From: a virus
DNA: 64,000 bases
Strand: one strand, 5' to 3'
IMG/VR virus record: IMGVR_UViG_3300036761_001580
Span: 69,198-133,197 of that record
Below the pieces are notes generated by a model. That model was not told the origin of the DNA. It made no database searches and was given only the letters and a program-made list of their open reading frames with translations. The position numbers were made by a program, and so were the translations under genes. Within the stretch, counting starts at the first letter, position 1. Every line of letters begins with the position of its first letter. Positions 12,886 through 62,760 of this stretch are shown piece after piece.

Positions 12886-12889
12886 TCCG

Positions 12890-13353: not shown

Positions 13354-13359
13354 TAGCCC

Positions 13360-13387: not shown

Positions 13388-13404
13388 CCAGGTAGGAGGA
13401 CAGC

Positions 13405-14333: not shown

Positions 14334-14337
14334 CTCT

Positions 14338-14365
14338 TGACAGCCTCACTATAGTAGTTATATTC
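14338..14365 (+). promoter_or_regulatory. class A promoter cassette (-10 TATATT)
   Basis: ctcTTGACAgcctcactatagtagtTATATTccc. Confidence 0.5.
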
Positions 14366-14412
14366 CCAAGTAGGAGAAGCGAGCTGACCCTCGCTGAACA
14401 AGGAGAAGATCA

Positions 14413-20822: not shown

Positions 20823-21623
20823 TCACCTCTCGATGATGGCGACGTAGAAGTACCCGCAGATCCGCAGGGCTTCCGCCACCTTCTCCGCGCCCTCGCGGCT
20901 GGAGAACTCGATCTCGCTGGGCTTCCCCTCGTAGAGGGTGTCCGTGATCTCCTTGGCGTCCTTCAGCCCGATATTGAGATGCTGGCGCAGCTCCTTGATC
21001 GCGTAGATCTGGGTCGAGGAAGGCTGACGCTGCGATCCCTCCACGCTCTTGTAGAGCCCGTCCGTCTTCGTGAGCTGGACGATGAACTTGGGGACCCGGG
21101 GGGCCTCGAAGCCGAACACCGTCTCGATGTACCCGAGATCCTGCATCGCCTGCTCCAAGGTCGCACCCTTCAGAGACGAAATGAGCAGGCTCAACGACAT
21201 GTCCGCGCGAGAGATTGCCGACTCCGCCGGGAGCATGTGGTCTACAGACGCTGGGCTGAGATCGAGCTTCTTGATCCCCACCACCCAGCTCGCGTACATC
21301 TGGAAGCGCCCTCTCAGATTGGCGATCTCGCTGGTCTTCCCCAACAGGGAGTACCTGTGCAACTGAAGATCGATCTGGTGACTTCTCTGGAGGTTGATCA
21401 GCTCGACTCGGTGGTCATCACGCTCCTGACTTCGGACTTGATTGCTGGTAGCCCAAGCCTCCGTCATGCACGAGAGCCGCCTGTCGAGATCCAGGTTGGC
21501 GAGGCTCACACGCTCGACCTCCTCTTTCAAGGACTCGATCTCCCTGTCGTAGTCGTCCCTCAGGATCTCCGAGAGCAGCCCATTGTCCTTCTTGGTCGTC
21601 TTCTTCTTCGTTGCCATACCCAC
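20823..21623 (-). CDS. protein with C-terminal ribosomal L7/L12 CTD-like domain (266 aa)
   Basis: C-term IKELRQHLNIGLKDAKEITDTLYEGKPSEIEFSSREGAEKVAEALRICG resembles bL12 CTD; class B promoter upstream. Confidence 0.6.
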   Translation of the reverse strand: MGMATKKKTTKKDNGLLSEILRDDYDREIESLKEEVERVSLANLDLDRRLSCMTEAWATSNQVRSQERDDHRVELINLQRSHQIDLQLHRYSLLGKTSEIANLRGRFQMYASWVVGIKKLDLSPASVDHMLPAESAISRADMSLSLLISSLKGATLEQAMQDLGYIETVFGFEAPRVPKFIVQLTKTDGLYKSVEGSQRQPSSTQIYAIKELRQHLNIGLKDAKEITDTLYEGKPSEIEFSSREGAEKVAEALRICGYFYVAIIER

Positions 21624-26701: not shown

Positions 26702-27010
26702 CTACTTCACCCTGAAGGATCCCGAGGAGAAGGTGATCACGCATTTGGAGCGACGGGCCCTCTTGGTCACATCACTCAAGAGCTGCTGCTCTTCCCGAGA
26801 CAGTGGTCTGATTGAGCTGCGCTCCCACCACCCGCAGTCACCAGCCTTCGTGAGCCCATCACAAGCGTCAGGATCATCTTGAAGGAGCCGGCAGTAGACT
26901 TGGTGTCCACGAGCCGAGATGTACTTTACCAGGACGTCTCGACCCCGACCTTTGCCCTTGGTGCGTGTGAGAGAGCCTCTGCTCAGCCAGACAATGGCAC
27001 CGAACTTCAT
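26702..27010 (-). CDS. hypothetical protein (102 aa)
   Basis: ORF with ATGA overlap to the DnaJ-like gene. Confidence 0.5.
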   Translation of the reverse strand: MKFGAIVWLSRGSLTRTKGKGRGRDVLVKYISARGHQVYCRLLQDDPDACDGLTKAGDCGWWERSSIRPLSREEQQLLSDVTKRARRSKCVITFSSGSFRVK

Positions 27011-27432
27011 GACTTCACCAGCTTGCTCATCGCTGCGTTGAGAGCCTGCATCTTGACCTTGTCGCCTCCGTGGTCGGGATGATATTTCTGCGCCAGCGCA
27101 CGGTAGGCCGCTTTCACGACCTCAATCGGTGCTCCTGGAACCAGGTACAAGGTGGCCCAAGGTCCCGCAGGGGCGTTCTCCACGAAGTTCACTGCACCCT
27201 TGCAGCGCTCCTTCTTGTGCAGCACCACCCAGCTACCACCCTCGCCATCCTTCCAGAGCAGGATCTCCTCGCCCAGCATGATCCGGCCCATGCACTCGTT
27301 GCACCGGGTCTCGTACTTCGAAGCCATGATCAGGATGCGGTGGTGGGTGCAGACCTTCCATCCAGCCCGGCGAGCTGCACCCCCGGGCTCCAGGTTCTCC
27401 CCGCAGAGTGGGCATATTTCAGAGGCCTGCAT
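27007..27432 (-). CDS. J-domain (DnaJ-like) protein with N-terminal Cys cluster, 141 aa
   Basis: C-term YRALAQKYHPDHGGDKVKMQALNAAMSKL = J-domain with HPD motif; class B promoter upstream. Confidence 0.7.
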   Translation of the reverse strand: MQASEICPLCGENLEPGGAARRAGWKVCTHHRILIMASKYETRCNECMGRIMLGEEILLWKDGEGGSWVVLHKKERCKGAVNFVENAPAGPWATLYLVPGAPIEVVKAAYRALAQKYHPDHGGDKVKMQALNAAMSKLVKS

Positions 27433-46214: not shown

Positions 46215-47639
46215 CTACGCCTCCAGCAGGCCTTCCATGTACCCGTAGAAGGAGGACTCCTTCTTCTTCCCGCCAGCGAGGTCGCTGAAGAGCACCCGGG
46301 CCATCTGGCCGTCCTCGAAGCGGACATAGTAGAAGTCGCCCTCGCCGTCGTAGCGGGACTCGACCACGCACGGGGTGCCCTTGGCGTAGTCCTTGGGCAC
46401 TCCGCCGCCGATCATGAGTTCCAGCTTCTTGTTGAGCGTCACCTTCTGGTTCGGCTCGAACTTGTAGTCCTCAGGATCGATGCAGCCGGTGTCGAGGTCA
46501 TGCCGGATCTCGCCGCCCTCGGTCTCGCGGTCCTCGGCAGTTTCGAACTCCTCGAAGGCGCGGCGAGACCGCTTCTTGCTTCTCGCGTCGTTGAGGCCTT
46601 CCACCCACTGATCGAAACCCCCAGAATCGCCACGGTAGGGGTTGTCCGCAGGAGAAGATCCTTTCAGACCCGCCTGGTATCCATCCTCATAGGGATCGGC
46701 ACTCTCGTCCGGACCGAACCGCTCTACGCTCTCGAACCCGTCGTCAGCCAGCAGCTGTGCCCTCTTGCGAGCCGACAGCGGCGCGTGCAGATCGATCCCC
46801 TCCATCAGCTCGGCGATGTCGTTCGCCATGTTCGGAGCGCCGGCAGCCCCCGCGGGAGCGTGAACTGCGTGCTCCTGCACCGAGGTGAGGATGAGGTCCT
46901 GGAGCTGCATCTCGATGGACTCCACCTGCTTCCAGTGCTCGTCCCAGCCCTCGCAGGTGTCGTTGGTGCTCTGGATGCGCTCGTCGATGTCGAGGATCCC
47001 CTTCATGATGTTGACGGCCTCGGCCTCCTGAGGACTACCTGCAAATATGTCCAGGTAGAGTGGGATCTCGATGTCGTTCAGGTAGGCCCTCTTGCGACCC
47101 GCCATGATGATGAGCATCTGCTGCTCGGGGCTGTTCTTGAGCAGCTCCAGCTCCAGCAGGTTCAGCTCGTAGATGAGCTTCTGCTTCTCCTTGCGGAGGT
47201 CCTTGGTCTTGTCCTCCCACTCGGGCTCGTTGAGGTTGAGGTCGAGCCACTGCTTGACCAGCTCCTCGGCCTTGCCCTCGAAGGTGGTGCCCTTGAGCTG
47301 GAGGTAGTAGTCCTGCCACTCGCTGCCGCACGCCGTGATCGTACCTTGAGTCTTCTTCATCGCAGCAACCTCCAACGCACCGGCACCCTGCCCCAGGGTA
47401 TCGCGGGAAGATTCGAACAAGTCCACAGCCGCCTCGGCCACCAGGGTCAGCAGCTCGTTGGAACCATCGACGTCATCGTCTTCCTGGCCTTCGAAGTTCT
47501 CCAGGTTGATCGGAAGCTCCACCGTCCAGGGAACACCGCCACCCTCGACGACGTGGACCTTGTAGGTATCCGAGGACTCAGCGGCCTCGACCGTCACGTC
47601 GAACCCGCGGATCATGGTCGTGAAGGAATCGGTGCTCAT
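46215..47639 (-). CDS. hypothetical protein (474 aa)
   Basis: Long GC3-rich ORF. Confidence 0.7.
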   Translation of the reverse strand: MSTDSFTTMIRGFDVTVEAAESSDTYKVHVVEGGGVPWTVELPINLENFEGQEDDDVDGSNELLTLVAEAAVDLFESSRDTLGQGAGALEVAAMKKTQGTITACGSEWQDYYLQLKGTTFEGKAEELVKQWLDLNLNEPEWEDKTKDLRKEKQKLIYELNLLELELLKNSPEQQMLIIMAGRKRAYLNDIEIPLYLDIFAGSPQEAEAVNIMKGILDIDERIQSTNDTCEGWDEHWKQVESIEMQLQDLILTSVQEHAVHAPAGAAGAPNMANDIAELMEGIDLHAPLSARKRAQLLADDGFESVERFGPDESADPYEDGYQAGLKGSSPADNPYRGDSGGFDQWVEGLNDARSKKRSRRAFEEFETAEDRETEGGEIRHDLDTGCIDPEDYKFEPNQKVTLNKKLELMIGGGVPKDYAKGTPCVVESRYDGEGDFYYVRFEDGQMARVLFSDLAGGKKKESSFYGYMEGLLEA

Positions 47640-48253
47640 CTTGAGTTCCTACTTGCGGGACGGTCTATGAAGCCCTCATCGGCCTCCTCACGAGGGAAAG
47701 CCCCGCTGACGTCCGTCTCCGCCGGCATCTGGATGTGGGAGAGCAAGAGGCTGGTCATGTCCTCGACGGCCTCCATGAGCCTGCGCAGGTCCTGCTGCTC
47801 GACCGCGGCGGTGACCTCGACGGAGAGGTCCTGAAGGTCCCTCCAGTCGAGGCCTTGCTGCTCGGCGGCCTGGGCCTTCTTACCCCGCCCTGCCTGAATC
47901 TCTATCGGAGGCGGCTCATAAAGACTATCATCAACGTTGTAGCCTTGAAATTTTAAGTGCTCTACAAGATTTGGCGTTTCCTTAATGAACGCATAGGCGA
48001 AATCGTCACCGTCAGCCTCCCACGGAACCCCCAAGATGGCCTGATCCTGTGCGGCCCACATCGCAACACCTGGACCGGAGATAGAGGCGAGTACCAAGTC
48101 GTCCTTGCTCCACTCCAGAACGACGTCCGGCTCTAGCATCGCGCCCTCAGGGTCCCAACCACCACGGTTCGGGATGATGTCGTCCGTCCTCGCGGTGCGA
48201 ATCGCCGAAGCGATCCGACCCAGAGCAGCGCTGTTGAGTCCGAGCCTCATCAC
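47636..48253 (-). CDS. hypothetical protein (205 aa) sharing a ~70-aa domain with the C-terminus of 48250..51339
   Basis: GPGVAMWAAQDQAILGVPWEADGDDFAYAFI...FQGYNVDDSLYEPPP vs GPGAAAWAKNDQSIMGSNWETDGPDFAYAII...SEGYEVNDDDYSP. Confidence 0.65.
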   Translation of the reverse strand: MMRLGLNSAALGRIASAIRTARTDDIIPNRGGWDPEGAMLEPDVVLEWSKDDLVLASISGPGVAMWAAQDQAILGVPWEADGDDFAYAFIKETPNLVEHLKFQGYNVDDSLYEPPPIEIQAGRGKKAQAAEQQGLDWRDLQDLSVEVTAAVEQQDLRRLMEAVEDMTSLLLSHIQMPAETDVSGAFPREEADEGFIDRPASRNSR

Positions 48254-51200
48254 CGAACAGGCTCCTCACCCTCTTTCGAAAGAAGGTCAACGTACTCGTC
48301 TGTGACGTACCCGAAGCCCTCCTCGAACTGTGCGTCGGAGCCGATCATGTGCATGACGTCTTCAGCGCTCATCAAGAGATCACCTTCATGACCTGCGAAG
48401 GTCACGATGTAGCTCCCGTGGTGGGGCTCCCACTCGGCCATCACGAGATGGCTGTACTGGGGGTGGCGGCCGTCAGGCCCGGGAGGGTCCATGTGAATCG
48501 CGAGATCCTCCGACTCCTCCTCGTCCATGGGGGAGTAGTCATCGTCGTTGACTTCGTAGCCCTCGGATTCCAAAGCCTCCACGAGACCAACCTCGTCCGA
48601 GATGATCGCGTAAGCGAAATCTGGACCGTCGGTCTCCCAGTTGGAACCCATGATGCTCTGATCGTTCTTGGCCCACGCGGCAGCTCCCGGTCCCTGCGCA
48701 TGAACGGTGACCATTCCATCGTCGTGGTCCAGGTTGTCCAGGTAGATGGTAAACGTCTCGGGCTCTTCCTCGCCCTCGTCGTCCATCTGAGCCGACCGAG
48801 AGAGCTTGGGCTCGATGGGAGCTTCGGGCTCCTCGCCGAAGCCGTCCTCGGGCTCCTCTTCCTCTTCACGGTTGTCCGTGAAGTCCAGGACCTGAAGCTC
48901 AGACCCGTTGATGCCGGCAGTATTCTGCACCACCTCTTGCAGCTCCAGCGTGGTCATGGTGAAGACCGCCCCGTCGAAGCTCTCAGTGAGGGGGTTGTAC
49001 CCCTCCTCTTCCTCCGTCTTCCACGACTCTTCGAGATCTTCCGGAGAAGCATCCTCTCGGATCCGCTCTTCGAGAATCTCATCCGCTATCTGGAGAGCTT
49101 CATCACCCGAACGCTCACTACACGCCAGAGCAGCCCCTGGAGTGTAACCTGATCCGTCGTGCATGATGGCAACGTAGATCTTCGTGGGCTCCCCGTTGTA
49201 CTCGTAGAGGTTGAACCAGTCACGCTCGACGCAACCCTTCAGGAGCACCACCCCTTCGAGCCACCTCGACAACTCCTCTGCGCCGCCGCCAGGACCCGCA
49301 GTACGACGGGATCCCTCCCGCACCGGCCGGCCCCTGTTCGGCCCCTTGCCGTACGGGTTCAGCGCGAAGCCGTCGTTGATGAGGTGCGGCAGCCACTTGT
49401 CCCGGGAGCAGGTCGGGTACCTGCGAAGGATGTAGTTCCGCTCGATGTGCGAGTACGGCCGCGGGAACGTGTCCAGTCCGTCCTCTTCCGCCTTGACCAT
49501 GTCTTCGAGCACGAGATCGTACCCGGCCGGCATGTACCGCTTCATCGGCCGGTTGTCGTCCTCGTCGACCTCCATCTCCTTCACGAGGTTCGTCTGCTGC
49601 GCGAGCTTCTTGCAGTTCGCAGTGAAGGTCTGCCAGTAGTCGGTCGGGACCTCCTGCTCCTGCGGGACGTCGGTGAAGGAGAAGGCGTTCTCCAGCTCCA
49701 CCAGCAGGTCCTTCGCGGTCTGCTCGTCGCCACCCTGGAGAGCGGACTGGGCCTCCTGCGCGATCTGCTGGTAGTAGGCCAGCTCGTCCGGCTTGAAGGT
49801 GTCCTGCGCGCTCTGGAGGTAGGTCGTCATCTCAGCGAGCGCGGTCGCAGTGTCAGCTGCCGCCCGCCTCCGGCCGAACCTGCGCCGGCCGGTCGCGTAC
49901 TCGGCGATCATGAGCGCGACCTTGCGGACCTCGGCCTTGCCGATCTTCGAGGCGGTCGTCCCGCCGAGCCCGGCCTTCAGGTCATCGAGCAGGAAGTCCC
50001 ACTCGACGTCTTCCGTCCGGAGACCGAGCACCGACATCATCGGGCTGATCATCTGCGAGATGTTGTCAATGAGGGTCTCCCGCGAGGGGGTCAGGATGTC
50101 CTGGACCTGCTGCATGATCGTCGGCTGCGCCAGGATCTGCCGGTACAAACTGTCCGTCGCGCTCCCCGTCTCGGCGTACTGGCCGTAGGGGGTCTTCTCC
50201 CCACCGGGAACCCCCGCCATGGTCGGATCCGTCGCAGGGTTCGAGATCTGCGTGGCGTCACTCTGGGTGGCATCTCCCGCCGGAGGATTCGCCAGGCTGC
50301 TCGGTGTGCCGGGGTTGGTCTGGTCCTGGCCCATGAGACGCTTCGCGTAGGTCGTGAAGTGCTGCATCTGCGGCTCGCTGTAGATGGAATCCATGAGGTC
50401 ACGGTTCTCCCTGCCGATGCCCTCTGGAGAGGTATCCCCGTACGGAAGGATGTCCTGAAGGATTCGTTCGAAAAACCCAGAAGGGTTCGGGTTATTCGGA
50501 GACGTCTCTGGGTTCCAGTAAGCGGAGACCATTGTACCCTGGTACAGGTAGATCTCCTTGTCCCGAGCACCACCCTGGCTCCGCATGTAGTCGAGACAGG
50601 CTTGGTAGGCCTCGTCGTAGCTCCCCCCTTGGTAAAGAGTCTCCCCGTCGATCACGAGTGTGAAGGTGTTCGGATCAGGGGTCACGCCCTGGGCCTGACG
50701 CCGGCTGTGCCGGATCCCCATCCCGTCCGTGACCACCTCGCGCGGCATCCAACCCAGTGTGTTGCGCTCGGCCGCGGCGCGATCCAGCTCCTCGCCGCGC
50801 AGCGGCGGATCGTACATCCGGCGCATCGGCGGCAGCTGGTAGGAGGTGTTCCGCTGGACGATCTCGTCGATGGTGCTCTGCGCGATCACCTTCATCTGCT
50901 GATCGTAGATGAGGGTCGACGGCGGCACGACCACACCCCGGGACACGACCACGGGGAGGAGCGCCTGCCGGATCGCACCCGACTTCGTGCAGATGCGCAC
51001 GTTGAACAGGATCTCCGCATCGACGACCTGGCTGTCGTCGTGGGCGGCCATCTTGACACCCTTCACGTTGTTGAACGTGATCTGCGGCAGCATCGGGAAG
51101 TCGCACATGTCGAGCACCGAGCGCGCCGCGAGGGCGGCCTCCTGGATGTACGCCCGCACCGAGCGGTCGTTCGTCCCGAGACCCACCGCCTTCTGAGAGG

Positions 51201-51339
51201 AGAAGACGTCCCTCAGATCAGGAGCGGCAGACTTCCGGCTCAGCCTCTCGCGAGCCGTCTTGAGCCGATCATCGAAGCCTCGGAACATCGGGTGGTTCCG
51301 TACGTGGTCTTTTGCCATCAGCTCGTTGAACTTAGACAT
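48250..51339 (-). CDS. giant hypothetical protein (1029 aa)
   Basis: Long GC3-rich ORF; acidic C-terminal third. Confidence 0.8.
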   Translation of the reverse strand: MSKFNELMAKDHVRNHPMFRGFDDRLKTARERLSRKSAAPDLRDVFSSQKAVGLGTNDRSVRAYIQEAALAARSVLDMCDFPMLPQITFNNVKGVKMAAHDDSQVVDAEILFNVRICTKSGAIRQALLPVVVSRGVVVPPSTLIYDQQMKVIAQSTIDEIVQRNTSYQLPPMRRMYDPPLRGEELDRAAAERNTLGWMPREVVTDGMGIRHSRRQAQGVTPDPNTFTLVIDGETLYQGGSYDEAYQACLDYMRSQGGARDKEIYLYQGTMVSAYWNPETSPNNPNPSGFFERILQDILPYGDTSPEGIGRENRDLMDSIYSEPQMQHFTTYAKRLMGQDQTNPGTPSSLANPPAGDATQSDATQISNPATDPTMAGVPGGEKTPYGQYAETGSATDSLYRQILAQPTIMQQVQDILTPSRETLIDNISQMISPMMSVLGLRTEDVEWDFLLDDLKAGLGGTTASKIGKAEVRKVALMIAEYATGRRRFGRRRAAADTATALAEMTTYLQSAQDTFKPDELAYYQQIAQEAQSALQGGDEQTAKDLLVELENAFSFTDVPQEQEVPTDYWQTFTANCKKLAQQTNLVKEMEVDEDDNRPMKRYMPAGYDLVLEDMVKAEEDGLDTFPRPYSHIERNYILRRYPTCSRDKWLPHLINDGFALNPYGKGPNRGRPVREGSRRTAGPGGGAEELSRWLEGVVLLKGCVERDWFNLYEYNGEPTKIYVAIMHDGSGYTPGAALACSERSGDEALQIADEILEERIREDASPEDLEESWKTEEEEGYNPLTESFDGAVFTMTTLELQEVVQNTAGINGSELQVLDFTDNREEEEEPEDGFGEEPEAPIEPKLSRSAQMDDEGEEEPETFTIYLDNLDHDDGMVTVHAQGPGAAAWAKNDQSIMGSNWETDGPDFAYAIISDEVGLVEALESEGYEVNDDDYSPMDEEESEDLAIHMDPPGPDGRHPQYSHLVMAEWEPHHGSYIVTFAGHEGDLLMSAEDVMHMIGSDAQFEEGFGYVTDEYVDLLSKEGEEPVR

Positions 51340-52900: not shown

Positions 52901-55900
52901 TTACTGGAACAACTTGTCCAACCCACCATCCGACGGAATGCCGAACAGTTGCTTGGCGTCACTGGTGGTCATTCCTATCTCAGTGAGCAGCCTTCTGGCA
53001 AGCTCAGACACCTTCGCGCTCAGAACCTGCTCCGGAGAAGCGGCAGACACCGGGGCCTGCTGCACCGCCTGGAGGATGTCGAACGCCTTCTGGTCCGCAG
53101 AGCCCTCACCGCCCGGAGGAGGAGCCTTCGGAGTGGCAGCAGCACCTGGGGCGCTCTTGCCCGGACCGGCCGTAGGGCCGGCAACCGGAGCCCCTGGCTG
53201 AGCAGCCGTGGAGGTGCCCACCGGGGGCGTCATGTTCGGATCGGCCGACCCCGGCGGGGTGACCTGGGCGCGGATGGCCCGACGACGGCTCACCTTCTTC
53301 AGGATCATGGCCGCGAGGCGCTCCCGAACAGCCGCGGTCGGCTTCGGAGCCCCGGGGGCCGGAGTCGCACCCGCCGGCACGTTGCCCGGAGTCGGCGCGA
53401 GTGGCGACGGCGGGATCGTGGGGGCTACGGGACCGGCACCGGGACCAGCACCGCCAGGACCCGCCGGAGCCTTCTGATCGGCACCCGGGGTCTTCGGCTT
53501 GGCGTTCGAACCCGGCTTCGAGAGCTTGATCTGGAGGATCTTCTTCTTGTCCTCCTCGTCCATCAGGCTGATCTCCTCGGCCGTCCACCCGAGCGCCTGC
53601 AACCCGGAGTCACCCGAACCCGCAGGCATGGGACCTGGGGGTGTTTTGGTGGTCATCGGAGCCGCCCCAGGAGCACCCGGAGCCGGCTTGGGAGCCGCGG
53701 GAGCACCGGGGGTAGCCGGCGGGGCACCGCTCGCCGGAGGGTTGGTCGGGGACGGGGCCGGAGGAGCCGGCTGGGCTATCGGGGCCGCGGCTTGGGCGAG
53801 CTTCCGCGCCCGTAACGCGGCCTGCCGACGAGCCTCCTTCGGGTCTTCCTTCTTCTTGGATCCACCCGACGGTGGCTTCGTGAGCTTCTTCTCCTCGGTC
53901 AGGTCCTTGCCGTACTCGCCGAAGTAGCCACCCCAGTAGTCCTTGGCCTTCTCGTCGACCGCCTCCTTCGAGGCAACCTTCTTCACGAACTCGATGTACT
54001 CGTCATGGGCTTCTGGAGGGAGCATTTCGAGAACATCGAAGGCCAGCCTGACGTTTCCCTGGATGGCGTTGATGACGTCCTCCCAGTTGCCGTTGATGTA
54101 GTTGTCCGCAACGCTCTGGGAAGACCCCCCAGCTCCAGCCGGAACCTCGTCATCCTCGTAGAACCCGCCGGCCTGACGGCGTGAGTTCTTGTTGCGGTAG
54201 GGGCCCTGGCCTTCATCCGTCCAGTTTACCCGCTTCTCGGGACCACCACCGGTTCCAAGACCAGCCCCCGACTGCTCTTCTGGATTCACCTCACCCAGAT
54301 GCTCTTCGATGATCTCTCCATCCAAGAATAGTGTGACGTCCTCACCACTTGCTCGACCGTAACCACTCTTGGACTGGTCCACGTACTCCACGAAGTCATC
54401 ATGGGCTTCTTGCTCATCGCTCCCGTAATAGACTGAACCGATATTGCCGACGACAACCTCGTACACACCCTTCCCCATCTGAGCGCGACGGCCCTGCTTG
54501 ATCGGGCTGCCGGGGGTCATCTGCTGGCCCTCGTCAACCGGAGGGTTGCCCTCGGCGTGGAGGAACTCGTCCGTCGGGTTGCCCTGGGGCTTGGGCTCGT
54601 TCGGATCGACGAAGTCGGCGGGACCCGCACGCCTGCGGGAAGCGAGGTGCTCTTCGCCCCCCACCTCTTCCTCTTCCTCTTCCTCTTCCTCTTCGAAGTC
54701 GTCACCGTAAGTCTCTTCGAGGTAGGCCATCGCCTCCTCTTCGGTCTCGAAGAAGTCCCAATCGGTCGCGTCCATGTAGCCCGGAGCGCTCAAGCGGGCA
54801 CCGAAGCCGTGCTTGACTTCGATCTCGTACAGCTCATCATTCTGGGTGTACTGCTGTAGATCCGTCCCCGGCAGCTCTACGAAATCGAGAGGACCTCGCT
54901 CAAGGGACTTCTGCATCTTCTGGATCTCCGCCATGTCAACGAGATCCGCAGGAATCACCTCACCCCCGTAGTTGCCATTGACGATGACCCAATCACCCTC
55001 TTCGATGTTGGGCTGCATGAAGGCGTTGGGATCGAGCCTTGAGGCCGCTACACCCGGCATCTGCGCGCCTGCGTGGGAGGCCTCGAACGCCTGGTTCATG
55101 TCCTCCTGGGTGTAGTCCTCGGGACGCTTGTGGCGCAGGGTCTTGGAGCACCACTTCTGGAACTCCTGAGCAGACCACTCCGGAGCTTCCTCACCGAACA
55201 TGCCGGTGTAGTAGTCGTAGGCGTCCCGAAGGTTAAAAAAACCCAGGCCGCCCTCCGCGGCCTCTTCCTCGAACTCGTCGCGCATCTGCGCGGTCACCGG
55301 AGCTGCCGGCGCGGGAGACGGAACCCCACCACCTTGAGCCTTCGGGCCCTCGGGCTGGGTGCTCTGCTCGCCCTCCTCGCCCTCTCCACCCTCGGGCATG
55401 GTCGGGCGGAAGCGACTCCAGTCGACCTCCTGCCCGCCGAGCGCCAGCGTCAGAGCGTGCAGCTCCTCGCCACTCTCGGCTTCGAGATCACGGCCGTACT
55501 CGCCGGCCGCTCCCCAGTTCTCACGGAGACGCGGACCTGCCTGACGGCGGCCCCTCACGGGCATCGAGCCCTCGGGGACATCCTCGGCACCGTGGAACAC
55601 GCCCTGCTCGACACCGGCCGGTGGAGCAGCTTCCTTGTCCTTGCCGCCGGGCGTGTAGCCCTTGTTCTTCATGTCGTTCGCGAGCGCCCATGGATTGTCG
55701 ATCCCGGGTTCCTTCTTCATCTTCTTGATGGTGTCTTCCCAGCCCTCGGGAGCCACGGCCTTCACGTCCCCACCGGAGCAACCCTCGACCGCGGCATCCG
55801 CCTGACCGGCCTTCGGCCAGACATCGCCGAACTCGCCGTGGAGGATCGCCGGGTTGTAGTGCTCGGCCAGCTGCTGCGCGGCCTGCTGCCGCACCGACGT

Positions 55901-57262
55901 CGGGAAGAGCTTGTGCCACGGCATGGGGCGGACGGAGCCCTCCATCTCCTTGGCGTACTTCTGCGCGCCGGCCTCTGCCAGGTACCCCCAGAGCTTGACC
56001 GAGAGGGACTCATCGAAGGTGCCGTTCTTCACCTTCCGCATGAGGTTCTTGACGATGGGCATGAGGTTGCGCTCGTACAGGTCGTTGTCGTTCGTGATGT
56101 ACAGGACCAGCTCTTCCGCATCCGGCTCGAAGTAGTCCTCGCCCTCACCCTCGACTGGGCCGGGCATGTCCTCATCGGGGAGGGGCTCCAGCTCGTTGGA
56201 GTCGTCGAAGGTGGCGGCGGGATCCATCAGGTTCCCCGCGGCCCACTTCTTCGGGTCCAGGATATCCTTCAGAAGCTCCGCGCTCGGTCGCCTCGCCGTC
56301 ATCTGGCGGTAGGCCTCGGAAGCGTCGACCTTCGGGAACTGGAAGGAGTCCTCGAAGCGGCCTTCCTTGTCGTGCTGTCCCTCCGTCTCGGTCCGAAGCT
56401 CCTCGCCCTCACCCTGCTCGGTGGTGATGACCTCTTTCGGATCGGACGGATCCTCACCCTTGTTCAGCTTCTTGCCGGGCTCCTCGACCGGGGTGACGTC
56501 GAAGGGATCGGAGTCGGCGCGACGACGTGCCACGATCCCGTCCGTCGGACCAGAGCCGTCCACCATGGGAGCAGCTTCCTCGCCCATCTGGGCCTTGCCG
56601 TACCCGAGCTGACCGGGGCCGCGGCGGGGCTTCTGAGCCGGGTGGAGGGCCTCGTGACGACCCGTACGGCCGTCCTCCTGAACCTTCACGATCCGGTCCC
56701 TCCAGTGCGTCGGAGCGCTGGAGCTGTCCTCGCCGAGGCTCGTGTCCGGGAGCCCACCGCGGCCAACCGGGTCCTTCGGACGCTTGGTGATCTGCGGATT
56801 GAAGTGGGGAACGTTCTGGCTGGAGGTGTCGACGCCGAGGTTCTTGTTCGGAGCCGAGGTGCCCTTCTGATCCAGCCCGGTCGGGCGCTCGTTGACCTTC
56901 GGGTTCTTCCAGCCCTCACCCACGGACGAGTCGGGGCCGAGGACCTTCGAAGGCGAGCCCACGCTGACCTGGTCCTTGGGGTGCTTGTTCACCCCGGGGA
57001 TCGGCATCTCCGCGAGCTTGCAGAAGTCCTTGACCGCCCGATCCAGGTGGCACAGATCGGTCTCGAACGCCTGGTGCCGCGTGTCACCCTCGGGAGGGAA
57101 CACCTCGATGGTGTCCTTCTCCCCGTTGATGCGGATCAACCACCCTCGGTGCTCCACCGGCACGTCGTGGTACAGAGCTTCCGCGACTTTCTTGGGCTGG
57201 AGCCGGTCGGCCTTACGTCCCTGCGTCTTCGTGTTCGGCATGTTCCCTATCCTTTTCGTCAA
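52901..57262 (-). CDS. giant hypothetical protein (1453 aa) with Glu-run and ~350-aa Pro/Ala/Gly-rich tail
   Basis: Long GC3-rich ORF; EEEEEEEE run (GAA/GAG repeat ~54663-54696); KDYWGGYFGEYGKDL motif shared with 58327..59178. Confidence 0.8.
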   Translation of the reverse strand: MTKRIGNMPNTKTQGRKADRLQPKKVAEALYHDVPVEHRGWLIRINGEKDTIEVFPPEGDTRHQAFETDLCHLDRAVKDFCKLAEMPIPGVNKHPKDQVSVGSPSKVLGPDSSVGEGWKNPKVNERPTGLDQKGTSAPNKNLGVDTSSQNVPHFNPQITKRPKDPVGRGGLPDTSLGEDSSSAPTHWRDRIVKVQEDGRTGRHEALHPAQKPRRGPGQLGYGKAQMGEEAAPMVDGSGPTDGIVARRRADSDPFDVTPVEEPGKKLNKGEDPSDPKEVITTEQGEGEELRTETEGQHDKEGRFEDSFQFPKVDASEAYRQMTARRPSAELLKDILDPKKWAAGNLMDPAATFDDSNELEPLPDEDMPGPVEGEGEDYFEPDAEELVLYITNDNDLYERNLMPIVKNLMRKVKNGTFDESLSVKLWGYLAEAGAQKYAKEMEGSVRPMPWHKLFPTSVRQQAAQQLAEHYNPAILHGEFGDVWPKAGQADAAVEGCSGGDVKAVAPEGWEDTIKKMKKEPGIDNPWALANDMKNKGYTPGGKDKEAAPPAGVEQGVFHGAEDVPEGSMPVRGRRQAGPRLRENWGAAGEYGRDLEAESGEELHALTLALGGQEVDWSRFRPTMPEGGEGEEGEQSTQPEGPKAQGGGVPSPAPAAPVTAQMRDEFEEEAAEGGLGFFNLRDAYDYYTGMFGEEAPEWSAQEFQKWCSKTLRHKRPEDYTQEDMNQAFEASHAGAQMPGVAASRLDPNAFMQPNIEEGDWVIVNGNYGGEVIPADLVDMAEIQKMQKSLERGPLDFVELPGTDLQQYTQNDELYEIEVKHGFGARLSAPGYMDATDWDFFETEEEAMAYLEETYGDDFEEEEEEEEEEVGGEEHLASRRRAGPADFVDPNEPKPQGNPTDEFLHAEGNPPVDEGQQMTPGSPIKQGRRAQMGKGVYEVVVGNIGSVYYGSDEQEAHDDFVEYVDQSKSGYGRASGEDVTLFLDGEIIEEHLGEVNPEEQSGAGLGTGGGPEKRVNWTDEGQGPYRNKNSRRQAGGFYEDDEVPAGAGGSSQSVADNYINGNWEDVINAIQGNVRLAFDVLEMLPPEAHDEYIEFVKKVASKEAVDEKAKDYWGGYFGEYGKDLTEEKKLTKPPSGGSKKKEDPKEARRQAALRARKLAQAAAPIAQPAPPAPSPTNPPASGAPPATPGAPAAPKPAPGAPGAAPMTTKTPPGPMPAGSGDSGLQALGWTAEEISLMDEEDKKKILQIKLSKPGSNAKPKTPGADQKAPAGPGGAGPGAGPVAPTIPPSPLAPTPGNVPAGATPAPGAPKPTAAVRERLAAMILKKVSRRRAIRAQVTPPGSADPNMTPPVGTSTAAQPGAPVAGPTAGPGKSAPGAAATPKAPPPGGEGSADQKAFDILQAVQQAPVSAASPEQVLSAKVSELARRLLTEIGMTTSDAKQLFGIPSDGGLDKLFQ

Positions 57263-58326: not shown

Positions 58327-59178
58327 CTACCGCTTGGCGTTCGAGGGGGACAGCTTCTTCGGGACCACGGTGACCCACTTGTCTCCGTACTCACCGAAAT
58401 ACTTCCTCCAGTATTCGGCCGCCACCTCATCGACCCCGTTCTTCCGGAGCCAGATGCCCGCGAGGTCGGCGCGGACGCGCTTCTGCACCTCACGGACCAG
58501 CTCCTTGCCGAACGGGCCGTAGTAGGACTGCCAGTAGGCCGAGGCCTTCTCGTCGACCGCGAGCCGACGCGAACTCGGATCGCTGTACTCCTCGAAGATC
58601 TTCGCCACCCGACGCGCGATGAAGTCCATCGTGGACCCTACCCGCCTATCGGGAGGAGTCGACCGGATGAACTCGACCGCCTGGGCCACCCGCTCCAGAG
58701 GAACGCTCGGGAACTGGTCCATGATGTCCGACGTCATCAGGAACGGAAGGTTCCACATCTTCGACGTCAGCCGGGTCTGCATCCCACGGCCGATGGCCTT
58801 CCGGGCGTGCGCGATCTTCTCTTCGCCAAACGCCCTGCGCAGCTCAGCCCACTCGCGGATCCGAGGAACCGCTTCATCGCGAGCTGCCGCGTTGAAGCGC
58901 CCCACGACCCCGATGGGGAGGTCACTGTTCAGGGTCGGATCGTCGACCAGATCCGCACCGAACAGCCCCAGGCAGGCCACGCACTTCTCGGCCGCAATCT
59001 TCTGCGACAACGTCGCCGCGGTCTTCGCGGTCTTCGGCTCTCCAGGGAACATCTCAGGCTCCTGTCTGTTGCGACGGACGTGAACGCCACCCTCGTCCTC
59101 ATCAGCGGCCCACAGGTGGTGAGCGACCCGAGGATCTTCGTGGTGATCAGCGATGCGTCGTTCCGTTCTCATCGTCAT
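58327..59178 (-). CDS. hypothetical protein (283 aa) with C-terminal YWxxYFGxxGK motifs
   Basis: AYWQSYYGPFGKEL and AEYWRKYFGEYGDKW resemble the motif in 52901..57262. Confidence 0.6.
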   Translation of the reverse strand: MTMRTERRIADHHEDPRVAHHLWAADEDEGGVHVRRNRQEPEMFPGEPKTAKTAATLSQKIAAEKCVACLGLFGADLVDDPTLNSDLPIGVVGRFNAAARDEAVPRIREWAELRRAFGEEKIAHARKAIGRGMQTRLTSKMWNLPFLMTSDIMDQFPSVPLERVAQAVEFIRSTPPDRRVGSTMDFIARRVAKIFEEYSDPSSRRLAVDEKASAYWQSYYGPFGKELVREVQKRVRADLAGIWLRKNGVDEVAAEYWRKYFGEYGDKWVTVVPKKLSPSNAKR

Positions 59179-60540: not shown

Positions 60541-60978
60541 TCACTCCTTGACGTCGAAGAACTCGTGGAGGAACACCTCGAACTTCATCAGCTGGCGCGG
60601 CACGCTGAGACGCCCACCCTCCTTGATCTCGATCATGTCCACGTAGGTGTGGAGCGCCCGCTTGAGCCGGTCCACCGCGCTGAGAGGCTCCCCGTTCTTC
60701 ACGAAGGTCTTCTTCCCGCGAGCGACGTCGTCCTCCGTGATCGGCGAGGCATCGATCCCGCGGATCTCGCGCAGGTCAGCCGGCACCGGGATCGCCAGCC
60801 GCTCGTTCAAGAAGTGCGAGCAGTTGTCCGCCGAGTGCGAGTGGCTGACCGTCATCTTGAACTCGTCCTCGGTCATCATGTCCGTGGGGAGACCCGTAGC
60901 CGGGACGTCCCCAACGCACGCATTGGTCTCCCTCAAGAAATCGACCGCCCAGTCCTTCCAGCTCTTCTTCTGCGTCAT
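60541..60978 (-). CDS. hypothetical protein (~145 aa)
   Basis: ATGA overlap with stop of the trigger-factor-like gene. Confidence 0.55.
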   Translation of the reverse strand: MTQKKSWKDWAVDFLRETNACVGDVPATGLPTDMMTEDEFKMTVSHSHSADNCSHFLNERLAIPVPADLREIRGIDASPITEDDVARGKKTFVKNGEPLSAVDRLKRALHTYVDMIEIKEGGRLSVPRQLMKFEVFLHEFFDVKE

Positions 60979-62321
60979 GGCTTCTCCTCCTCGTTGACCC
61001 ATTTCACGTTGTCGAGCATGCTCTCGAACATTTCGTCGGAGCCGGGGGCCACGCTGAACAGCTCCCCGTACTTCCGAGCCGCCAGCTCCTGCATCAGACC
61101 ACGGTATGCCTGACCGGTGAATCGGTGTATGAAGTCCTCTTCGCTCTGGGCTCCGATAGCCCTCATCGCGGCGTTCTTATTCCCACCGAACTGACGAAGA
61201 TGCTGCTGCGCCATTTCAACGATTTTACCGTTGATGTATCCCTGAGGGATCGGAGGAACGGTCGAATTCTGCACGATGTGACCGATCACATGATCGGCCA
61301 CCAGACCGCGCTGCGCTCTCCTCAGGAACGCATCGAAGTCCTGGTGGAACCGATCCTCGAAGGACTTCAGATCATCGAACTCCGCGTCCCTCGCCAGCTC
61401 GTCGTCCACCGGAGGGATGACGATCTTCTGGAGGTTGTGGATCTTGATCGCCGCGTGCACGGTCTTCCCGACGTTCTCTTGGTCACGCGGGCTCGCCAGG
61501 TAGTCACACTCGAAGAGATCGCCGACCTTGTGGCCGATCAGCTGCTCGACCAGGTCCTTCATCGGGATTCCGGAAATGTCCACCCACTGGCGCTGGAAAG
61601 AGCCGTTGGCGTAGGGCTTCCCCTCAATGCTCGCGATCACATCCATCTGGATGTTGCTCAGCATCGTGATCGCGCCGTCAGGATCGTCTTCGAGCTTCCG
61701 GAACTGCATCTGCAACTCCCGGAGCCGGGCCTCGAACTGCACCTGCCGTGAGGGCTCCTTCGGCTTCTTGCAGGCCCAGTTGATCGGTTCTCTGAGTGTG
61801 GTGATCTTCGGATAGAAGTAGATGATGCCCACCATGTGAGGAGTTTGACCCTTCTCGAAATTGAACAGCTCGAACCCCTCCAGAAGGAGGACATCAGGGA
61901 CAACGTTAGCAATCTTGTCCCCGAGAACCTGTTGGTACAGAGCCTTCAAAGGGACGCGACTTTCTGCCATCTTCTGCGCGCCCTTCATAACGCCCCCAGC
62001 GCCCTTCTTACCCTTCAGCTTGTACTTCCAGATGAGCTGGTCCGCGTTCTCTTTCCAGAACTTGTCGAACTCCGCCCGAAGCTCATCGTACTTGAACCAG
62101 AGCACCACCCTGTAGGGTGGGGCCAAAGGCTCAATGATAGGCTCCTGGAGCTTCTCCTCGACCATCGCGTCCGCCTCCGGAGTCTCGATCCTCACCGCGT
62201 CGGCGGGGATGATGGACTCCTCGGGAGGGGCGAGCGCGGCCTCCTCAGCTGGGAGGAGCGATTCCGCAGCAGGCACCGAGGTATCTTCGGACGGTGATTT
62301 CGGTTCGAGGTTCTCCGACAT
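60975..62321 (-). CDS. trigger factor-like chaperone (FKBP-type PPIase domain + TF C-terminal domain), 448 aa
   Basis: Alignable to E. coli Tig: IGHKVGDLF~[36 protein letters not shown]~[39 protein letters not shown]~RRQAAQRFGGNEKQAL; divergent acidic/Pro-rich N-terminus. Confidence 0.7.
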   Translation of the reverse strand: [448 protein letters not shown]

Positions 62322-62760
62322 AGTTGATGTCTCCTTCCACGATCTTCAGGATCGTTCCTTTGCGAATGCTGATGTCGTTCTGCAATACCGCTGCGACCTT
62401 GACCCCTGCCGCACCCTTCACCTGTATGCCCTGCATCGCGTCACAGACGATGGCCGGCAGGTTGTCCAGATCGGGCTCGTGGCCCCTTGCCACATAGAAA
62501 ACAAAGTCGACCTCCACATGAAAGTCGAGAGGTCTCTTACCACCTTGGCGCTGGAACTGCGAGTACATCTCGTTCGCCAGGCGCTCCCGGGCGTGAGACA
62601 TCTCGGCAGAGTGGCCGATGAACGGACCCGACTTCGCACGGGGGTTCTTGTACCGGATGATAAGGTTATTCTTCTGCACCCACGGCTTGCCGGGGATCTT
62701 GAACCGGTACTCCTCGATGGGGATCCGGATGGGACGAGGCTCTGTTACCGACACATCCAT
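62245..62760 (-). CDS. RusA-like Holliday junction resolvase (171 aa; 3' end overlaps next gene)
   Basis: DLDNL catalytic-site-like motif and overall RusA-like layout. Confidence 0.45.
   Translation of the reverse strand: MDVSVTEPRPIRIPIEEYRFKIPGKPWVQKNNLIIRYKNPRAKSGPFIGHSAEMSHARERLANEMYSQFQRQGGKRPLDFHVEVDFVFYVARGHEPDLDNLPAIVCDAMQGIQVKGAAGVKVAAVLQNDISIRKGTILKIVEGDINYVGEPRTEITVRRYLGACCGIAPPS

What the first reader, a model, noticed from the sequence alone, without database searches (positions are those of the whole stretch)
60975..62321. Phage-encoded trigger factor homolog
The central and C-terminal parts align convincingly with bacterial trigger factor. The FKBP-type PPIase region aligns ([20 protein letters not shown] vs [18 protein letters not shown]). 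So do the following linker ([30 protein letters not shown] vs [28 protein letters not shown]) and the C-terminal domain hallmark ([17 protein letters not shown] vs LRRQAAQRFGGNEKQAL). The N-terminus is divergent: acidic and Pro-rich, with the canonical GFRxGxxP ribosome-binding signature unclear. A virus-encoded ribosome-associated chaperone is unusual. It sits next to the giant (structural?) proteins and may fold them co-translationally.
Basis: partly seen in the sequence, partly recalled or inferred. Interest (0 to 1): 0.65.

Follow-up and report, generated by a model that had tools for sequence, protein, structure and literature searches.

The report
Divergent trigger factor in huge phage
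A roughly 200-kb tailed phage carries its own divergent copy of trigger factor, the bacterial chaperone that meets new proteins at the ribosome; all three domains are kept, but the ribosome-docking motif and the prolyl-isomerase pocket have been remodelled.

Summary
The ORF at 60975-62321 (minus strand, 448 aa) is real and is a true trigger factor (TF) homolog. TIGR00115 scores E=8e-22. The best Foldseek matches of a confident AlphaFold model are full-length TF structures. Each of the three domains matches canonical TFs separately in profile-profile comparison (probability 98-99%).

It fails strict membership. It scores below the TIGR00115 and Pfam cut-offs. The GFRxGxxP ribosome-docking motif is replaced by a conserved Lys/Gly loop (K-x-K-G-G-K). 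Three of the five key PPIase residues are substituted or deleted, and the C-domain is about 45 residues shorter.

It belongs to a monophyletic family of at least 63 clusters at 50% identity. The family sits in conserved synteny (SbcC-like, RusA-like, TF-like, four small genes, giant acidic proteins) on six viral contigs of 57-212 kb. One of these contigs also carries a baseplate gene and a full phage replication module. dN/dS is about 0.27.

The most likely function is an ATP-independent, PPIase-independent chaperone for phage proteins. Ribosome docking is plausible but unproven.

It is not unprecedented. I found no paper that discusses them.

The parts
60975..62321 (-). TF-like gene, 448 aa from the ATG at 62321. 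JGI calls a GTG start 15 codons later (433 aa). Another in-frame ATG at codon 53 also has a GGAGG 8 nt upstream.
62145..62321 (-). N-terminal extension, residues 1-59: acidic, Pro-rich, predicted disordered. Its length varies, or it is absent, in relatives.
   Evidence: pLDDT below 50; net charge -12; indel-rich in alignment A1; many family members start about 10-20 aa before the IEPLAxPYR motif
62245..62321 (-). 77-nt dual-coding overlap between the TF-like 5' end and the RusA-like 3' end. The conserved TF peptide MSENxExKSxSEDT is encoded by the same bases as the conserved RusA C-terminus Y(V/D)GEPRTEI(T/I)(V/I)RRY.
   Evidence: three-frame translations in six phages
62331..62336 (-). Shine-Dalgarno-like AAGGAG about 9 nt upstream of the ATG, inside the RusA-like codons VEGD. 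An SD-like purine run (AAGGAG, GAGGGAG or AAAGGGG) sits at this position in all six phages, which suggests translational coupling.
61797..62144 (-). N-domain, residues 60-175, equivalent to the TF ribosome-binding 'tail' domain
   Evidence: hhalign against 15 canonical TFs: probability 98.4%, E=6e-15; secondary structure beta-alpha-loop-alpha-alpha-beta-beta
61980..62024 (-). Basic Lys/Gly loop, residues 100-114 ([15 protein letters not shown]; family consensus KGKKxKGGK), at the position of the TF signature GFRxGxxP
   Evidence: R45 to K in 51/63, G47 kept in 54/63, K48 kept in 32/63, F44 variable, P50 is a gap or Asp. Net charge of residues 100-115 is +5.
61698..61796 (-). Linker, residues 176-208, including a long helix (192-206)
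61413..61697 (-). FKBP-fold 'head' domain, residues 209-303, with a degenerate catalytic pocket
   Evidence: hhalign probability 98.4%, E=8e-15; Foldseek match to the TF PPIase domain 1l1p; in the family F198 to L (38/63), Y221 deleted (60/63), F233 to A (38/63); Pfam FKBP_C found in 0/63
60978..61412 (-). Helical C-domain, residues 304-448, equivalent to the TF substrate-binding body and arms; about 45 residues shorter than in canonical TFs
   Evidence: Pfam Trigger_C, residues 318-415; hhalign probability 99.1%, E=5e-19, aligned only to the first 131 of 178 template columns
62245..62760 (-). Upstream RusA-like Holliday-junction resolvase gene, a conserved neighbour
   Evidence: Pfam RusA E=1.7e-4; PHROG 140; synteny
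60541..61002 (-). Downstream 153-aa gene of unknown function. It overlaps the TF 3' end by 28 nt, is a conserved neighbour, and shares the elevated dS of the TF body.
   Evidence: no family hit; AlphaFold model unusable

Best explanation
This is an intact, selectively maintained, three-domain paralog of bacterial trigger factor. It is fixed in a lineage of huge (about 190-212 kb) tailed phages. It is transcribed within a long co-directional gene array at the end of the DNA replication/recombination module, and it appears translationally coupled to the RusA-like gene upstream and the 153-aa gene downstream. The most likely function is an ATP-independent holdase/foldase for phage-encoded proteins, using the TF cradle formed by the helical C-domain arms and the FKBP 'head'. 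Catalytic prolyl isomerisation is probably lost or very weak. The N-domain keeps the TF ribosome-binding fold, and its signature loop is rebuilt into a strongly conserved basic K-x-K-G-G-K loop. I read that conservation as evidence for a retained docking function, probably at the ribosomal tunnel exit with different contacts (more rRNA or acidic uL23 surface). Shown: homology, architecture, family, synteny, purifying selection, phage context. Inferred: chaperone activity, loss of PPIase activity, ribosome docking, identity of the clients.
For: Homology: TIGR00115 E=7.9e-22 over residues 150-431; PDB TF 1t11 E=4e-7; family profile against TF structures E=2e-21 and 1e-19. Fold: AlphaFold pLDDT 81.7, about 90 in the body; the top 8 Foldseek PDB matches are TFs, E=1e-16 to 5e-12, five of them aligned over 397-446 columns. 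Each domain is separately homologous to canonical TFs that carry GFRxGxxP (probability 98.4, 98.4 and 99.1%). Family: 63 representatives at E<1e-30 that grade into 5240 TF hits, monophyletic in a rough NJ tree. Selection: dN/dS 0.27 overall and 0.21-0.27 in each domain, against the 80%-identical homolog. Synteny is conserved across six viral contigs at 37-80% identity, and a more distant TF-like gene also follows SbcD/SbcC-like genes. Phage context: baseplate wedge (PHROG 6, E=1.6e-25), a beta-helix protein of 1588 aa, and PolA, DnaB, primase and clamp loader on the syntenic 212-kb contig. In the window itself: Tad2-like anti-defence gene, Lar, tmRNA, tRNA. The loop is among the best conserved parts of the N-domain (K103 in at least 90% of members, G110). 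Literature: algal chloroplast TIG1 proteins keep only the first Gly and last Pro of the motif; chloroplast TIG1 still associates with ribosomes, and Chlamydomonas TIG1, with substituted key PPIase residues, has 100-fold lower PPIase activity (PMC9527764). F198A abolishes TF PPIase activity without affecting TF's enhancement of ClpXP-dependent degradation (PMC7804408).
Against: The score is far below the TIGR00115 equivalog cut-off (77.7 against 180.2 bits). Pfam Trigger_N and FKBP_C are not detected. F44 and P50 of the docking motif are not conserved. The FRK tripeptide is needed for E. coli TF ribosome binding (from my own knowledge: Kramer et al. 2002), so docking may be lost. There is no experimental data on activity, clients or timing of expression. 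The C-domain lacks roughly the last 45 residues of canonical TFs, with unknown consequences for the cradle. The host is unknown, so co-evolution with uL23 cannot be checked.
Confidence: 0.6

Rival explanations
1. It is an off-ribosome assembly chaperone. The protein has lost ribosome docking and acts post-translationally as a holdase or assembly factor for particular phage proteins, for example the giant acidic low-complexity proteins downstream or virion components. This would resemble TF's documented assembly activity and the TF proposed to chaperone giant proteins on 'Hodor' megaplasmids.
For: The signature motif is not conserved at F44 and P50. Synteny with giant acidic proteins of 1453 and 1029 aa is conserved in all related contigs. 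These proteins are ORFans with no structural hits. They share a recurrent R[RK][RQT]A[QG] motif, 8 copies against 0.25 expected (post hoc), which suggests processed proteins. A megaplasmid precedent exists (PMC12934698). PDB 3gty ('folding and assembly activities of TF') is among the best structural matches.
Against: The loop that replaces the signature is one of the most conserved parts of the N-domain and is strongly basic. That is hard to explain if the N-domain had lost its docking role. The gene is separated from the giant ORFs by four genes and sits next to recombination genes.
Confidence: 0.25
2. It is a ribosome-directed takeover factor or decoy. The protein occupies the tunnel-exit site to displace host TF, SRP or PDF, or to protect ribosomes. 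It would then be part of a phage toolkit that reprogrammes host translation, rather than a folding helper.
For: The same window encodes a tmRNA (Rfam 74 bits), a tRNA-Pro, an RMF-like domain protein, a J-domain protein and a weak L7/L12-like protein. Huge phages are known to carry translation genes (PMC7162821). Plant Tig2, which is a TF ribosome-binding domain alone, has taken on a non-folding, ribosome-surface role (PMC11731035).
Against: A decoy would not need the full cradle. All three domains are under similar purifying selection (dN/dS 0.21-0.27) and the C-domain is the best conserved relative to TFs. There is no direct evidence of ribosome binding.
Confidence: 0.1
3. It is not a phage gene. 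It is a cellular or megaplasmid TF captured on a misclassified or chimeric contig.
For: No capsid, portal or terminase gene was found in the 64-kb window or in the roughly 40 kb of additional contig I examined. Large plasmids can carry TF and translation genes (PMC12934698; PMC7162821).
Against: The same gene order occurs on six IMG/VR contigs. The syntenic contig carries a baseplate wedge homolog, a tailspike-like beta-helix protein and a phage-type replication module. The window has Tad2-like, Lar and RusA genes and mostly ORFans. The plasmid database has no member of this family, only distant cellular tig genes at 24-27% identity. The family is monophyletic and separate from canonical TFs.
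Confidence: 0.04

Closest known systems
Bacterial trigger factor (Tig; E. coli P0A850, PDB 1w26/2vrh; V. cholerae 1t11; TIGR00115)
   Same: Same three-domain order and folds: N 'tail', FKBP 'head', helical C 'arms'. All three domains are homologous. Conserved linker and C-domain motifs are shared (PxxDDxLAK and FGG/G-D-K regions). Both are acidic overall (net charge -19 against -23).
   Different: 16% identity. Scores fall below the curated cut-offs. GFRxGxxP is replaced by KxKGGK. The PPIase residues F198, Y221 and F233 are replaced or deleted. The C-domain is about 45 residues shorter. There is an extra disordered acidic N-terminal extension that overlaps the upstream gene. It is encoded by a phage and sits next to recombination genes, not next to clpP-clpX.
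Chloroplast trigger factor TIG1 (PDB 7zgi) and algal TIG1s
   Same: A precedent for a TF with a degenerate signature motif and substituted key PPIase residues that still works as a ribosome-associated chaperone (PMC9527764). 7zgi is among the significant structural matches.
   Different: TIG1 keeps the Tyr equivalent to Y221 and has measurable (100-fold lower) PPIase activity. Here that residue is deleted in 60 of 63 family members. TIG1 is cellular, not viral.
Trigger factor genes auto-annotated in huge-phage genomes of Al-Shayeb et al. 2020 (e.g. PPR-W_PHAGE_36_0, GWD1_PHAGE_CIR_38_79)
   Same: TF homologs of about 427 aa in phage genomes over 200 kb, embedded in replication modules next to DnaE. 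The GWD1 protein also lacks GFRxGxxP and is a remote relative of this family (hhalign probability 98.4%, E=8e-15).
   Different: They are not members of this family (BLAST not significant). PPR-W keeps the canonical VPGFRKGKAP motif. None is mentioned in that paper's main text.
Trigger factor of 'Hodor' conjugative megaplasmids
   Same: A TF encoded by a mobile element near giant proteins, proposed to be their chaperone (PMC12934698).
   Different: It is on a plasmid, co-transcribed with a class B sortase gene and located near a Sec operon, and its proposed clients are secreted S-layer-type proteins. It is not related in context to the gene here.
Plant Tig2 (TF ribosome-binding domain only)
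   Same: It shows that TF-derived proteins can take on new ribosome-surface functions (PMC11731035).
   Different: Tig2 lacks the PPIase and C-domains. The phage protein keeps all three.
Other phage-encoded chaperones (T4 gp31 GroES-like; phage EL GroEL-like); from my own knowledge, not tested here
   Same: Phages supplementing or replacing host folding machinery for their own proteins.
   Different: A different chaperone class (the Hsp60/Hsp10 system, ATP-dependent). There is no homology.

Membership tests
Trigger factor (Tig; TIGR00115; Pfam Trigger_N + FKBP_C + Trigger_C) | Three-domain architecture in the order N (ribosome-binding) - FKBP - helical C, with the TF fold | tested here: met
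   AlphaFold model pLDDT 81.7. The top 8 Foldseek PDB matches are TFs (E=1e-16 to 5e-12), five of them aligned over 397-446 columns. Domain-wise hhalign probabilities 98.4, 98.4 and 99.1% against canonical TFs.
Trigger factor (Tig; TIGR00115; Pfam Trigger_N + FKBP_C + Trigger_C) | Score at or above the NCBIfam TIGR00115 equivalog cut-off (180.2 bits) | tested here: not met
   77.7 bits, E=7.9e-22, residues 150-431 against profile positions 82-364 of 410
Trigger factor (Tig; TIGR00115; Pfam Trigger_N + FKBP_C + Trigger_C) | Pfam Trigger_C (PF05698) above the gathering score | tested here: inconclusive
   The window protein scores 21.9 bits against a cut-off of 22.7 (E=1.9e-4). 23 of 63 family members match at E<0.01, best 3.9e-8. 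Two homologs carry the precomputed Pfam hit.
Trigger factor (Tig; TIGR00115; Pfam Trigger_N + FKBP_C + Trigger_C) | Pfam Trigger_N (PF05697) and FKBP_C (PF00254) detectable | tested here: not met
   Neither is found in the window protein at E<=10. Trigger_N is found in 1 of 63 members (E=0.0044) and FKBP_C in 0 of 63.
Trigger factor (Tig; TIGR00115; Pfam Trigger_N + FKBP_C + Trigger_C) | Signature motif GFRxGxxP in the N-domain loop (contacts uL23, uL29 and 23S rRNA; PMC9527764) | tested here: not met
   The window has [12 protein letters not shown]. Family consensus is KGKKxKGGK: G43 to K in 54/63, F44 variable, R45 to K in 51/63, G47 kept in 54/63, P50 is a gap or Asp. All 15 canonical TFs in the same alignment have G, F, R, G and P at these positions.
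Trigger factor (Tig; TIGR00115; Pfam Trigger_N + FKBP_C + Trigger_C) | Key PPIase residues E178, I195, F198, Y221, F233 (PMC9527764, citing Liu et al. 2010) | tested here: not met
   Window residues: A238, M254, L257, gap, A290. Family: E or D in 31/63; I in 14/63 (gap in 20/63); F in 5/63 (L in 38/63); deleted in 60/63; A in 38/63 with no Phe among the listed residues. The alignment register in loops is uncertain.
Trigger factor (Tig; TIGR00115; Pfam Trigger_N + FKBP_C + Trigger_C) | Binds the 50S subunit at the tunnel exit; chaperone activity on nascent chains | not testable with these tools
   This needs ribosome co-sedimentation or cross-linking and aggregation-suppression assays. The host and its uL23 are unknown.
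Generic FKBP-type PPIase | FKBP fold with an aromatic active-site pocket | tested here: inconclusive
   The fold is present: Foldseek matches to the TF PPIase domain 1l1p, FKBP13, SlyD and FKBP12 at E=4e-4 to 1e-2, target-normalised TM-score about 0.5-0.6. The pocket aromatics are largely replaced. No Pfam FKBP_C hit.
Tailed phage (Caudoviricetes) genome | Virion hallmark genes on the same replicon | tested here: met
   On the syntenic IMG/VR contig 3300031952_000001 (212 kb; neighbouring proteins 89-100% identical to the window's): baseplate wedge PHROG 6, E=1.6e-25, a weak tape-measure hit and a beta-helix protein of 1588 aa. Capsid, portal and terminase genes were not reached in the roughly 100 kb examined.

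The most novel reading that the evidence does not exclude
A whole lineage of huge phages has re-engineered trigger factor into a virus-specific, ribosome-docking chaperone. The canonical GFRxGxxP/uL23 contact is replaced by a Lys/Gly loop and PPIase catalysis is discarded. During infection the protein sits on host ribosomes, displacing or supplementing host TF, and selectively handles the phage's giant acidic low-complexity proteins. It would act as part of a translation-takeover toolkit together with the phage tmRNA, the RMF-like protein and the J-domain protein.
Probability: 0.25. Interest if true: 0.7.

Novelty: new variant of a known kind. Interest (0 to 1): 0.5.

Why it matters
Trigger factor is regarded as a cellular (bacterial and plastid) chaperone. 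It is essentially absent from cultured and deposited phage genomes. Only 32-33 of 50,697 records gave any TF match, and most of those are short, unannotated records or near-identical to host tig, which looks like host DNA. None belongs to this family. A conserved, purifying-selected TF family in huge phages would add co-translational or early protein folding to the list of translation-linked functions that large phages bring with them. The family is also a natural experiment on TF. It keeps the cradle but rewrites the ribosome-docking loop and empties the PPIase pocket. That makes it useful for asking which TF features are needed for chaperoning and which for docking. Practically, it shows that automatic 'trigger factor' labels in huge-phage genomes are real homologs and deserve experimental study.

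Tried and rejected
1. tblastn of the protein against 50,697 GenBank phage records found no match, so no cultured relative is available.
2. tblastn against plasmids found only distant cellular tig genes.
3. Pfam, PHROG and PDB sequence searches of the giant ORFs (1453 and 1029 aa) and of the four genes between them and the TF gene found nothing. tblastn of the 1453-aa protein hit only a 58-aa stretch in Burkholderia jumbo phages. I therefore could not establish whether the giant proteins are structural.
4. Downstream 153-aa partner: only 3 homologs were found and the AlphaFold model has pLDDT 54.5, which is unusable, so no fold search was run.
5. The sigma-70 promoter and terminator scan around the gene found nothing above shuffled expectation. 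The repeated early-promoter-like element of this phage is absent near the gene.
6. My first N-domain hhalign used a template set contaminated with intermediate, non-canonical sequences. I discarded it and redid it with only motif-bearing TFs.
7. I first suspected that the strongly conserved N-terminal peptide MSENxExKSxSEDT was a targeting signal. I now favour a simpler explanation: it is dual-coded with the conserved RusA C-terminus.
8. I considered accelerated evolution to explain why TF is only 80% identical between two otherwise 92-100% identical phages. I rejected this because dS is elevated as well (0.49 against 0.03-0.25) and dN/dS is 0.27, which points to a recombination mosaic.
9. The listing of cluster members on the nearest non-family relatives showed only metagenomic sequences with no organism names, so the donor lineage and the host remain unknown.
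10. BFVD contains no full-length viral TF-like structure.
Full report
**1. The observation**

The window has a 448-aa ORF at 60975-62321 on the minus strand. Its codon-position GC pattern (0.62/0.35/0.79) is typical of the real genes in this roughly 60% GC sequence. They are reproduced again in an alignment with the E. coli tig product, which I fetched from NC_000913.3 rather than recalling it.

**2. Is it a trigger factor homolog?**

Yes, over its whole body.

- NCBIfam TIGR00115 matches residues 150-431 with E=7.9e-22.
- Pfam detects only Trigger_C (E=1.9e-4, 21.9 bits against a gathering score of 22.7).
- An AlphaFold model built on 11 family sequences is confident (mean pLDDT 81.7, about 90 from residue 70 on; residues 1-59 are disordered).
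- The best Foldseek matches in the PDB are TFs: 1t11, 1w26, 2vrh, 3gty, 3gu0 and the chloroplast TF 7zgi (E=1e-16 to 5e-12). Five of them align over 397-446 columns. The isolated TF PPIase domain and other FKBPs follow. TM-scores are low, as expected for a flexible three-domain protein.
- I split the protein into domains and compared a 63-sequence family profile with a profile of 15 TFs that carry the canonical motif. The N-domain gave probability 98.4% (E=6e-15), the FKBP domain 98.4% (E=8e-15) and the C-domain 99.1% (E=5e-19). An earlier run with a contaminated template set was discarded.

**3. How it differs from TF**

It fails the curated thresholds: 77.7 against 180.2 bits for TIGR00115. 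Pfam Trigger_N is found in 1 of 63 family members and FKBP_C in none.

The ribosome-docking signature GFRxGxxP contacts uL23, uL29 and 23S rRNA (PMC9527764). It is invariant in the 15 canonical TFs of my alignment. In the phage family it is replaced by a Lys/Gly loop with consensus KGKKxKGGK:
- R45 to K in 51/63
- G47 kept in 54/63
- K48 kept in 32/63
- G43 to K in 54/63
- F44 variable
- P50 a gap or Asp

Some sequences show transitional forms such as GFKKGKGGK and KGFRKGKKK.

The five residues listed as key for E. coli TF PPIase activity are E178, I195, F198, Y221 and F233 (PMC9527764). In the window protein they correspond to A238, M254, L257, a deletion, and A290. Family-wide, Y221 is deleted in 60/63, F198 is Leu in 38/63 and F233 is Ala in 38/63. 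F198A alone abolishes PPIase activity (PMC7804408). The Chlamydomonas TF keeps the Tyr and is already 100-fold less active (PMC9527764). I therefore infer little or no isomerase activity here.

The C-domain aligns only to the first 131 of 178 template columns, so about 45 residues are missing at the end.

**4. The N-terminal extension**

Residues 1-59 are acidic (net charge -12), Pro-rich, disordered and variable in length. The first 15 residues (MSENxExKSxSEDT) are more conserved than the body. The reason appears to be dual coding. The ATG at 62321 lies 77 nt inside the upstream RusA-like gene. In all six phages examined, the same bases encode the conserved RusA C-terminus Y(V/D)GEPRTEI(T/I)(V/I)RRY in another frame. 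A Shine-Dalgarno-like purine run (AAGGAG, GAGGGAG or AAAGGGG) lies about 9 nt upstream, inside the codons VEGD.

The TF frame stays open through indel-rich linkers in all six phages, which argues that this ATG is used. An internal ATG at codon 53, also with a GGAGG, cannot be excluded. JGI calls a GTG at codon 16. Many family members lack the extension altogether.

**5. The family and its context**

- A word-indexed search found 11 close relatives on contigs up to 212 kb. JGI already names them 'FKBP-type peptidyl-prolyl cis-trans isomerase (trigger factor)'.
- An exhaustive profile search found 63 representatives (50% identity clusters) at E<1e-30. These grade into 5240 TF hits.
- In a rough neighbour-joining tree without support values, the 63 form one clade. 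Their sister group is a set of non-canonical TF-like proteins with a KGG[YF]R loop.
- All near relatives come from metagenomes.
- IMG/VR holds six contigs (57-212 kb) with a homolog.
- All six show the same gene order: SbcC-like, (160 aa), 82 aa, RusA-like, TF-like, 153 aa, 320 aa, 283 aa, 213 aa, and then, wherever the fetched sequence extends far enough, the giant protein. RecA, SbcD-like, clamp-loader and ThyX genes lie further upstream.
- A more distant TF-like gene (P0012) also directly follows SbcD/SbcC-like genes on an 83-kb contig that carries DnaE, ThyX and an amidase.

**6. Is it a phage?**

The 64-kb window has no capsid, portal or terminase hit. I therefore walked along the syntenic 212-kb IMG/VR contig. 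Upstream of the TF region lies a complete phage-type replication module: PolA (PHROG 17, E=1e-105), DnaB-like helicase, primase, clamp loader, 5'-3' exonuclease, SNF2 and UDG. Before that lie a 1588-aa beta-helix protein and a baseplate wedge homolog (PHROG 6, E=1.6e-25). The window itself has a Tad2-like anti-Thoeris gene, Lar and RusA, and mostly ORFans. Together this supports a huge tailed phage. The megaplasmid alternative is unlikely.

**7. Selection**

Against the 80%-identical homolog on that contig, the TF gene has dN=0.134, dS=0.49 and dN/dS=0.27. Each domain gives 0.21-0.27. Flanking genes have dS of 0.03-0.25. The elevated dS of the TF body and of the following 153-aa gene points to a recombination mosaic, not to relaxed or positive selection. 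The breakpoint lies after the N-terminal extension, where dS is 0.02. The gene is functional and all three domains are constrained.

**8. Expression context**

The gene lies in a co-directional minus-strand array that runs from about 64 kb to about 17 kb. No promoter or terminator signal near it exceeds shuffled expectation. The phage's repeated promoter-like element (TTGAC[A/C]-N13-GGTTACATT) has 21 copies in the divergent small-gene cluster at 2.9-14.4 kb and is absent near the TF gene. The gene is therefore probably not in that temporal class, which I presume to be early. It probably travels with the replication/recombination genes.

**9. Mechanism**

Most likely (0.6), this is an ATP-independent, PPIase-independent chaperone for phage proteins that uses the TF cradle. 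The N-domain probably still serves as a docking module through its conserved basic loop. Ribosome docking is an inference from two things: the conservation of the loop, and the chloroplast precedent that the motif can drift while ribosome association is kept.

Rivals:
- An off-ribosome assembly chaperone for the giant acidic proteins (0.25). A megaplasmid TF provides a precedent (PMC12934698).
- A ribosome-occupying takeover factor (0.1). The neighbouring tmRNA, RMF-like, J-domain and L7/L12-like genes fit this idea. Purifying selection on the full cradle argues against it.
- Not a phage gene (0.04).

**10. Novelty**

No paper in the searchable library discusses a phage-encoded TF. One virome study reports finding none (PMC8407431). 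In deposited phage records, E. coli TF or a canonical huge-phage TF matches only 32-33 of 50,697 records. Most are short, unannotated records or near-identical to host tig. BFVD has no full-length TF-like viral model.

However, the GenBank-format supplementary genomes of Al-Shayeb et al. 2020 contain CDSs auto-annotated 'Trigger factor' in at least 11 of the first 200 files. One has a canonical GFRKGKAP motif next to DnaE. Another is non-canonical and remotely related to this family. That paper's main text does not mention them.

So the gene class is visible in databases but uncharacterised. The family here is a distinct variant of a known kind. Interest is moderate (0.5).

Noticed in passing
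window 34385-34750 (-) and 33554-33630 (-): A phage-encoded tmRNA (Rfam RF00023, 74 bits, full length; ARAGORN tag peptide ADADVIPFPKMAVPSLQRAA) and a tRNA-Pro(UGG) lie next to each other.
   Followed up: partly
window 30747-33485 (-): A 912-aa protein is homologous to eukaryotic major vault protein: Pfam MVP_shoulder E=1.8e-29 and Vault_3; PDB MVP chains E=3e-17 over residues 511-905 against MVP 457-873. An MVP homolog in a phage is unusual and deserves its own look.
   Followed up: partly
window 46215-47639 (-): A 474-aa protein has a ribosome modulation factor (RMF)-like domain near residues 310-360 (PYEDGYQAGLKG...QWVEGL). Pfam RMF E=3.6e-5; phmmer against E. coli RMF E=0.002 within the window's protein set.
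   Followed up: partly
window 27007-27432 (-) and 20823-21623 (-): A 141-aa protein has a J-domain (HPD at residue 117-118; Pfam DnaJ E=1.5e-5). A 266-aa protein shows a weak similarity to the ribosomal L7/L12 C-terminal domain (Pfam E=7e-4).
   Followed up: partly
window 2900-14400, both strands; single copies near 22746 and 44811: A repeated promoter-like element, TTGAC(A/C)-N13-GGTTACATT, has 21 copies. They face outward from a switch point near 8.4-8.9 kb, each upstream of a small gene. In total there are 23 matches against 0.03 expected from shuffles. This is probably one promoter class of the phage, and naive ORF calls translate it as 'MVTLGQG...'.
   Followed up: partly
window 52901-57262, 48250-51339, 34824-36812, 46215-47639 (all -): The large acidic low-complexity proteins (1453, 1029, 662 and 474 aa) share the motif R[RK][RQT]A[QG], 8 copies against 0.25 +/- 0.5 in shuffles. 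The pattern was chosen post hoc. These may be protease-processing sites. Several proteins (662 aa, 170 aa at 37474-37986, 205 aa at 47636-48253) share an N-terminal 'G(R)(I/V)ASA' motif. A 'YW..YFGEYG' motif is shared by the 283-aa protein (58327-59178) and the 1453-aa protein.
   Followed up: partly
window 22787-23995 (-): A 402-aa transposase (PHROG 506, E=1.6e-121) sits inside the phage gene array.
   Followed up: no
window, ORFs not localised: Pfam hits among the window's proteins to a Tad2-like Thoeris anti-defence domain (E=1e-19), Lar restriction alleviation, DUF7168, DUF2786, DUF7447, Metallophos, GDSL lipase and a DNA methyltransferase. I did not determine which ORFs carry them.
   Followed up: no
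window 60541-62144 compared with L004 (IMG/VR contig 3300031952_000001): Recombination mosaic. The TF body and the downstream 153-aa gene have dS of 0.37-0.97 between two phages whose flanking genes have dS of 0.03-0.25. The breakpoint lies just after the TF N-terminal extension.
   Followed up: yes
L011 (JGI 3300072490 contig, 83 kb) 10001-11419: A second, more distant TF-like lineage (472 aa, with a 'KGG[YF]R' loop in place of GFRxGxxP) also follows SbcD/SbcC-like genes, on a contig with DnaE, ThyX, thymidylate kinase and an Amidase_2 gene. The link between TF-like and SbcCD genes may therefore be old.
   Followed up: partly
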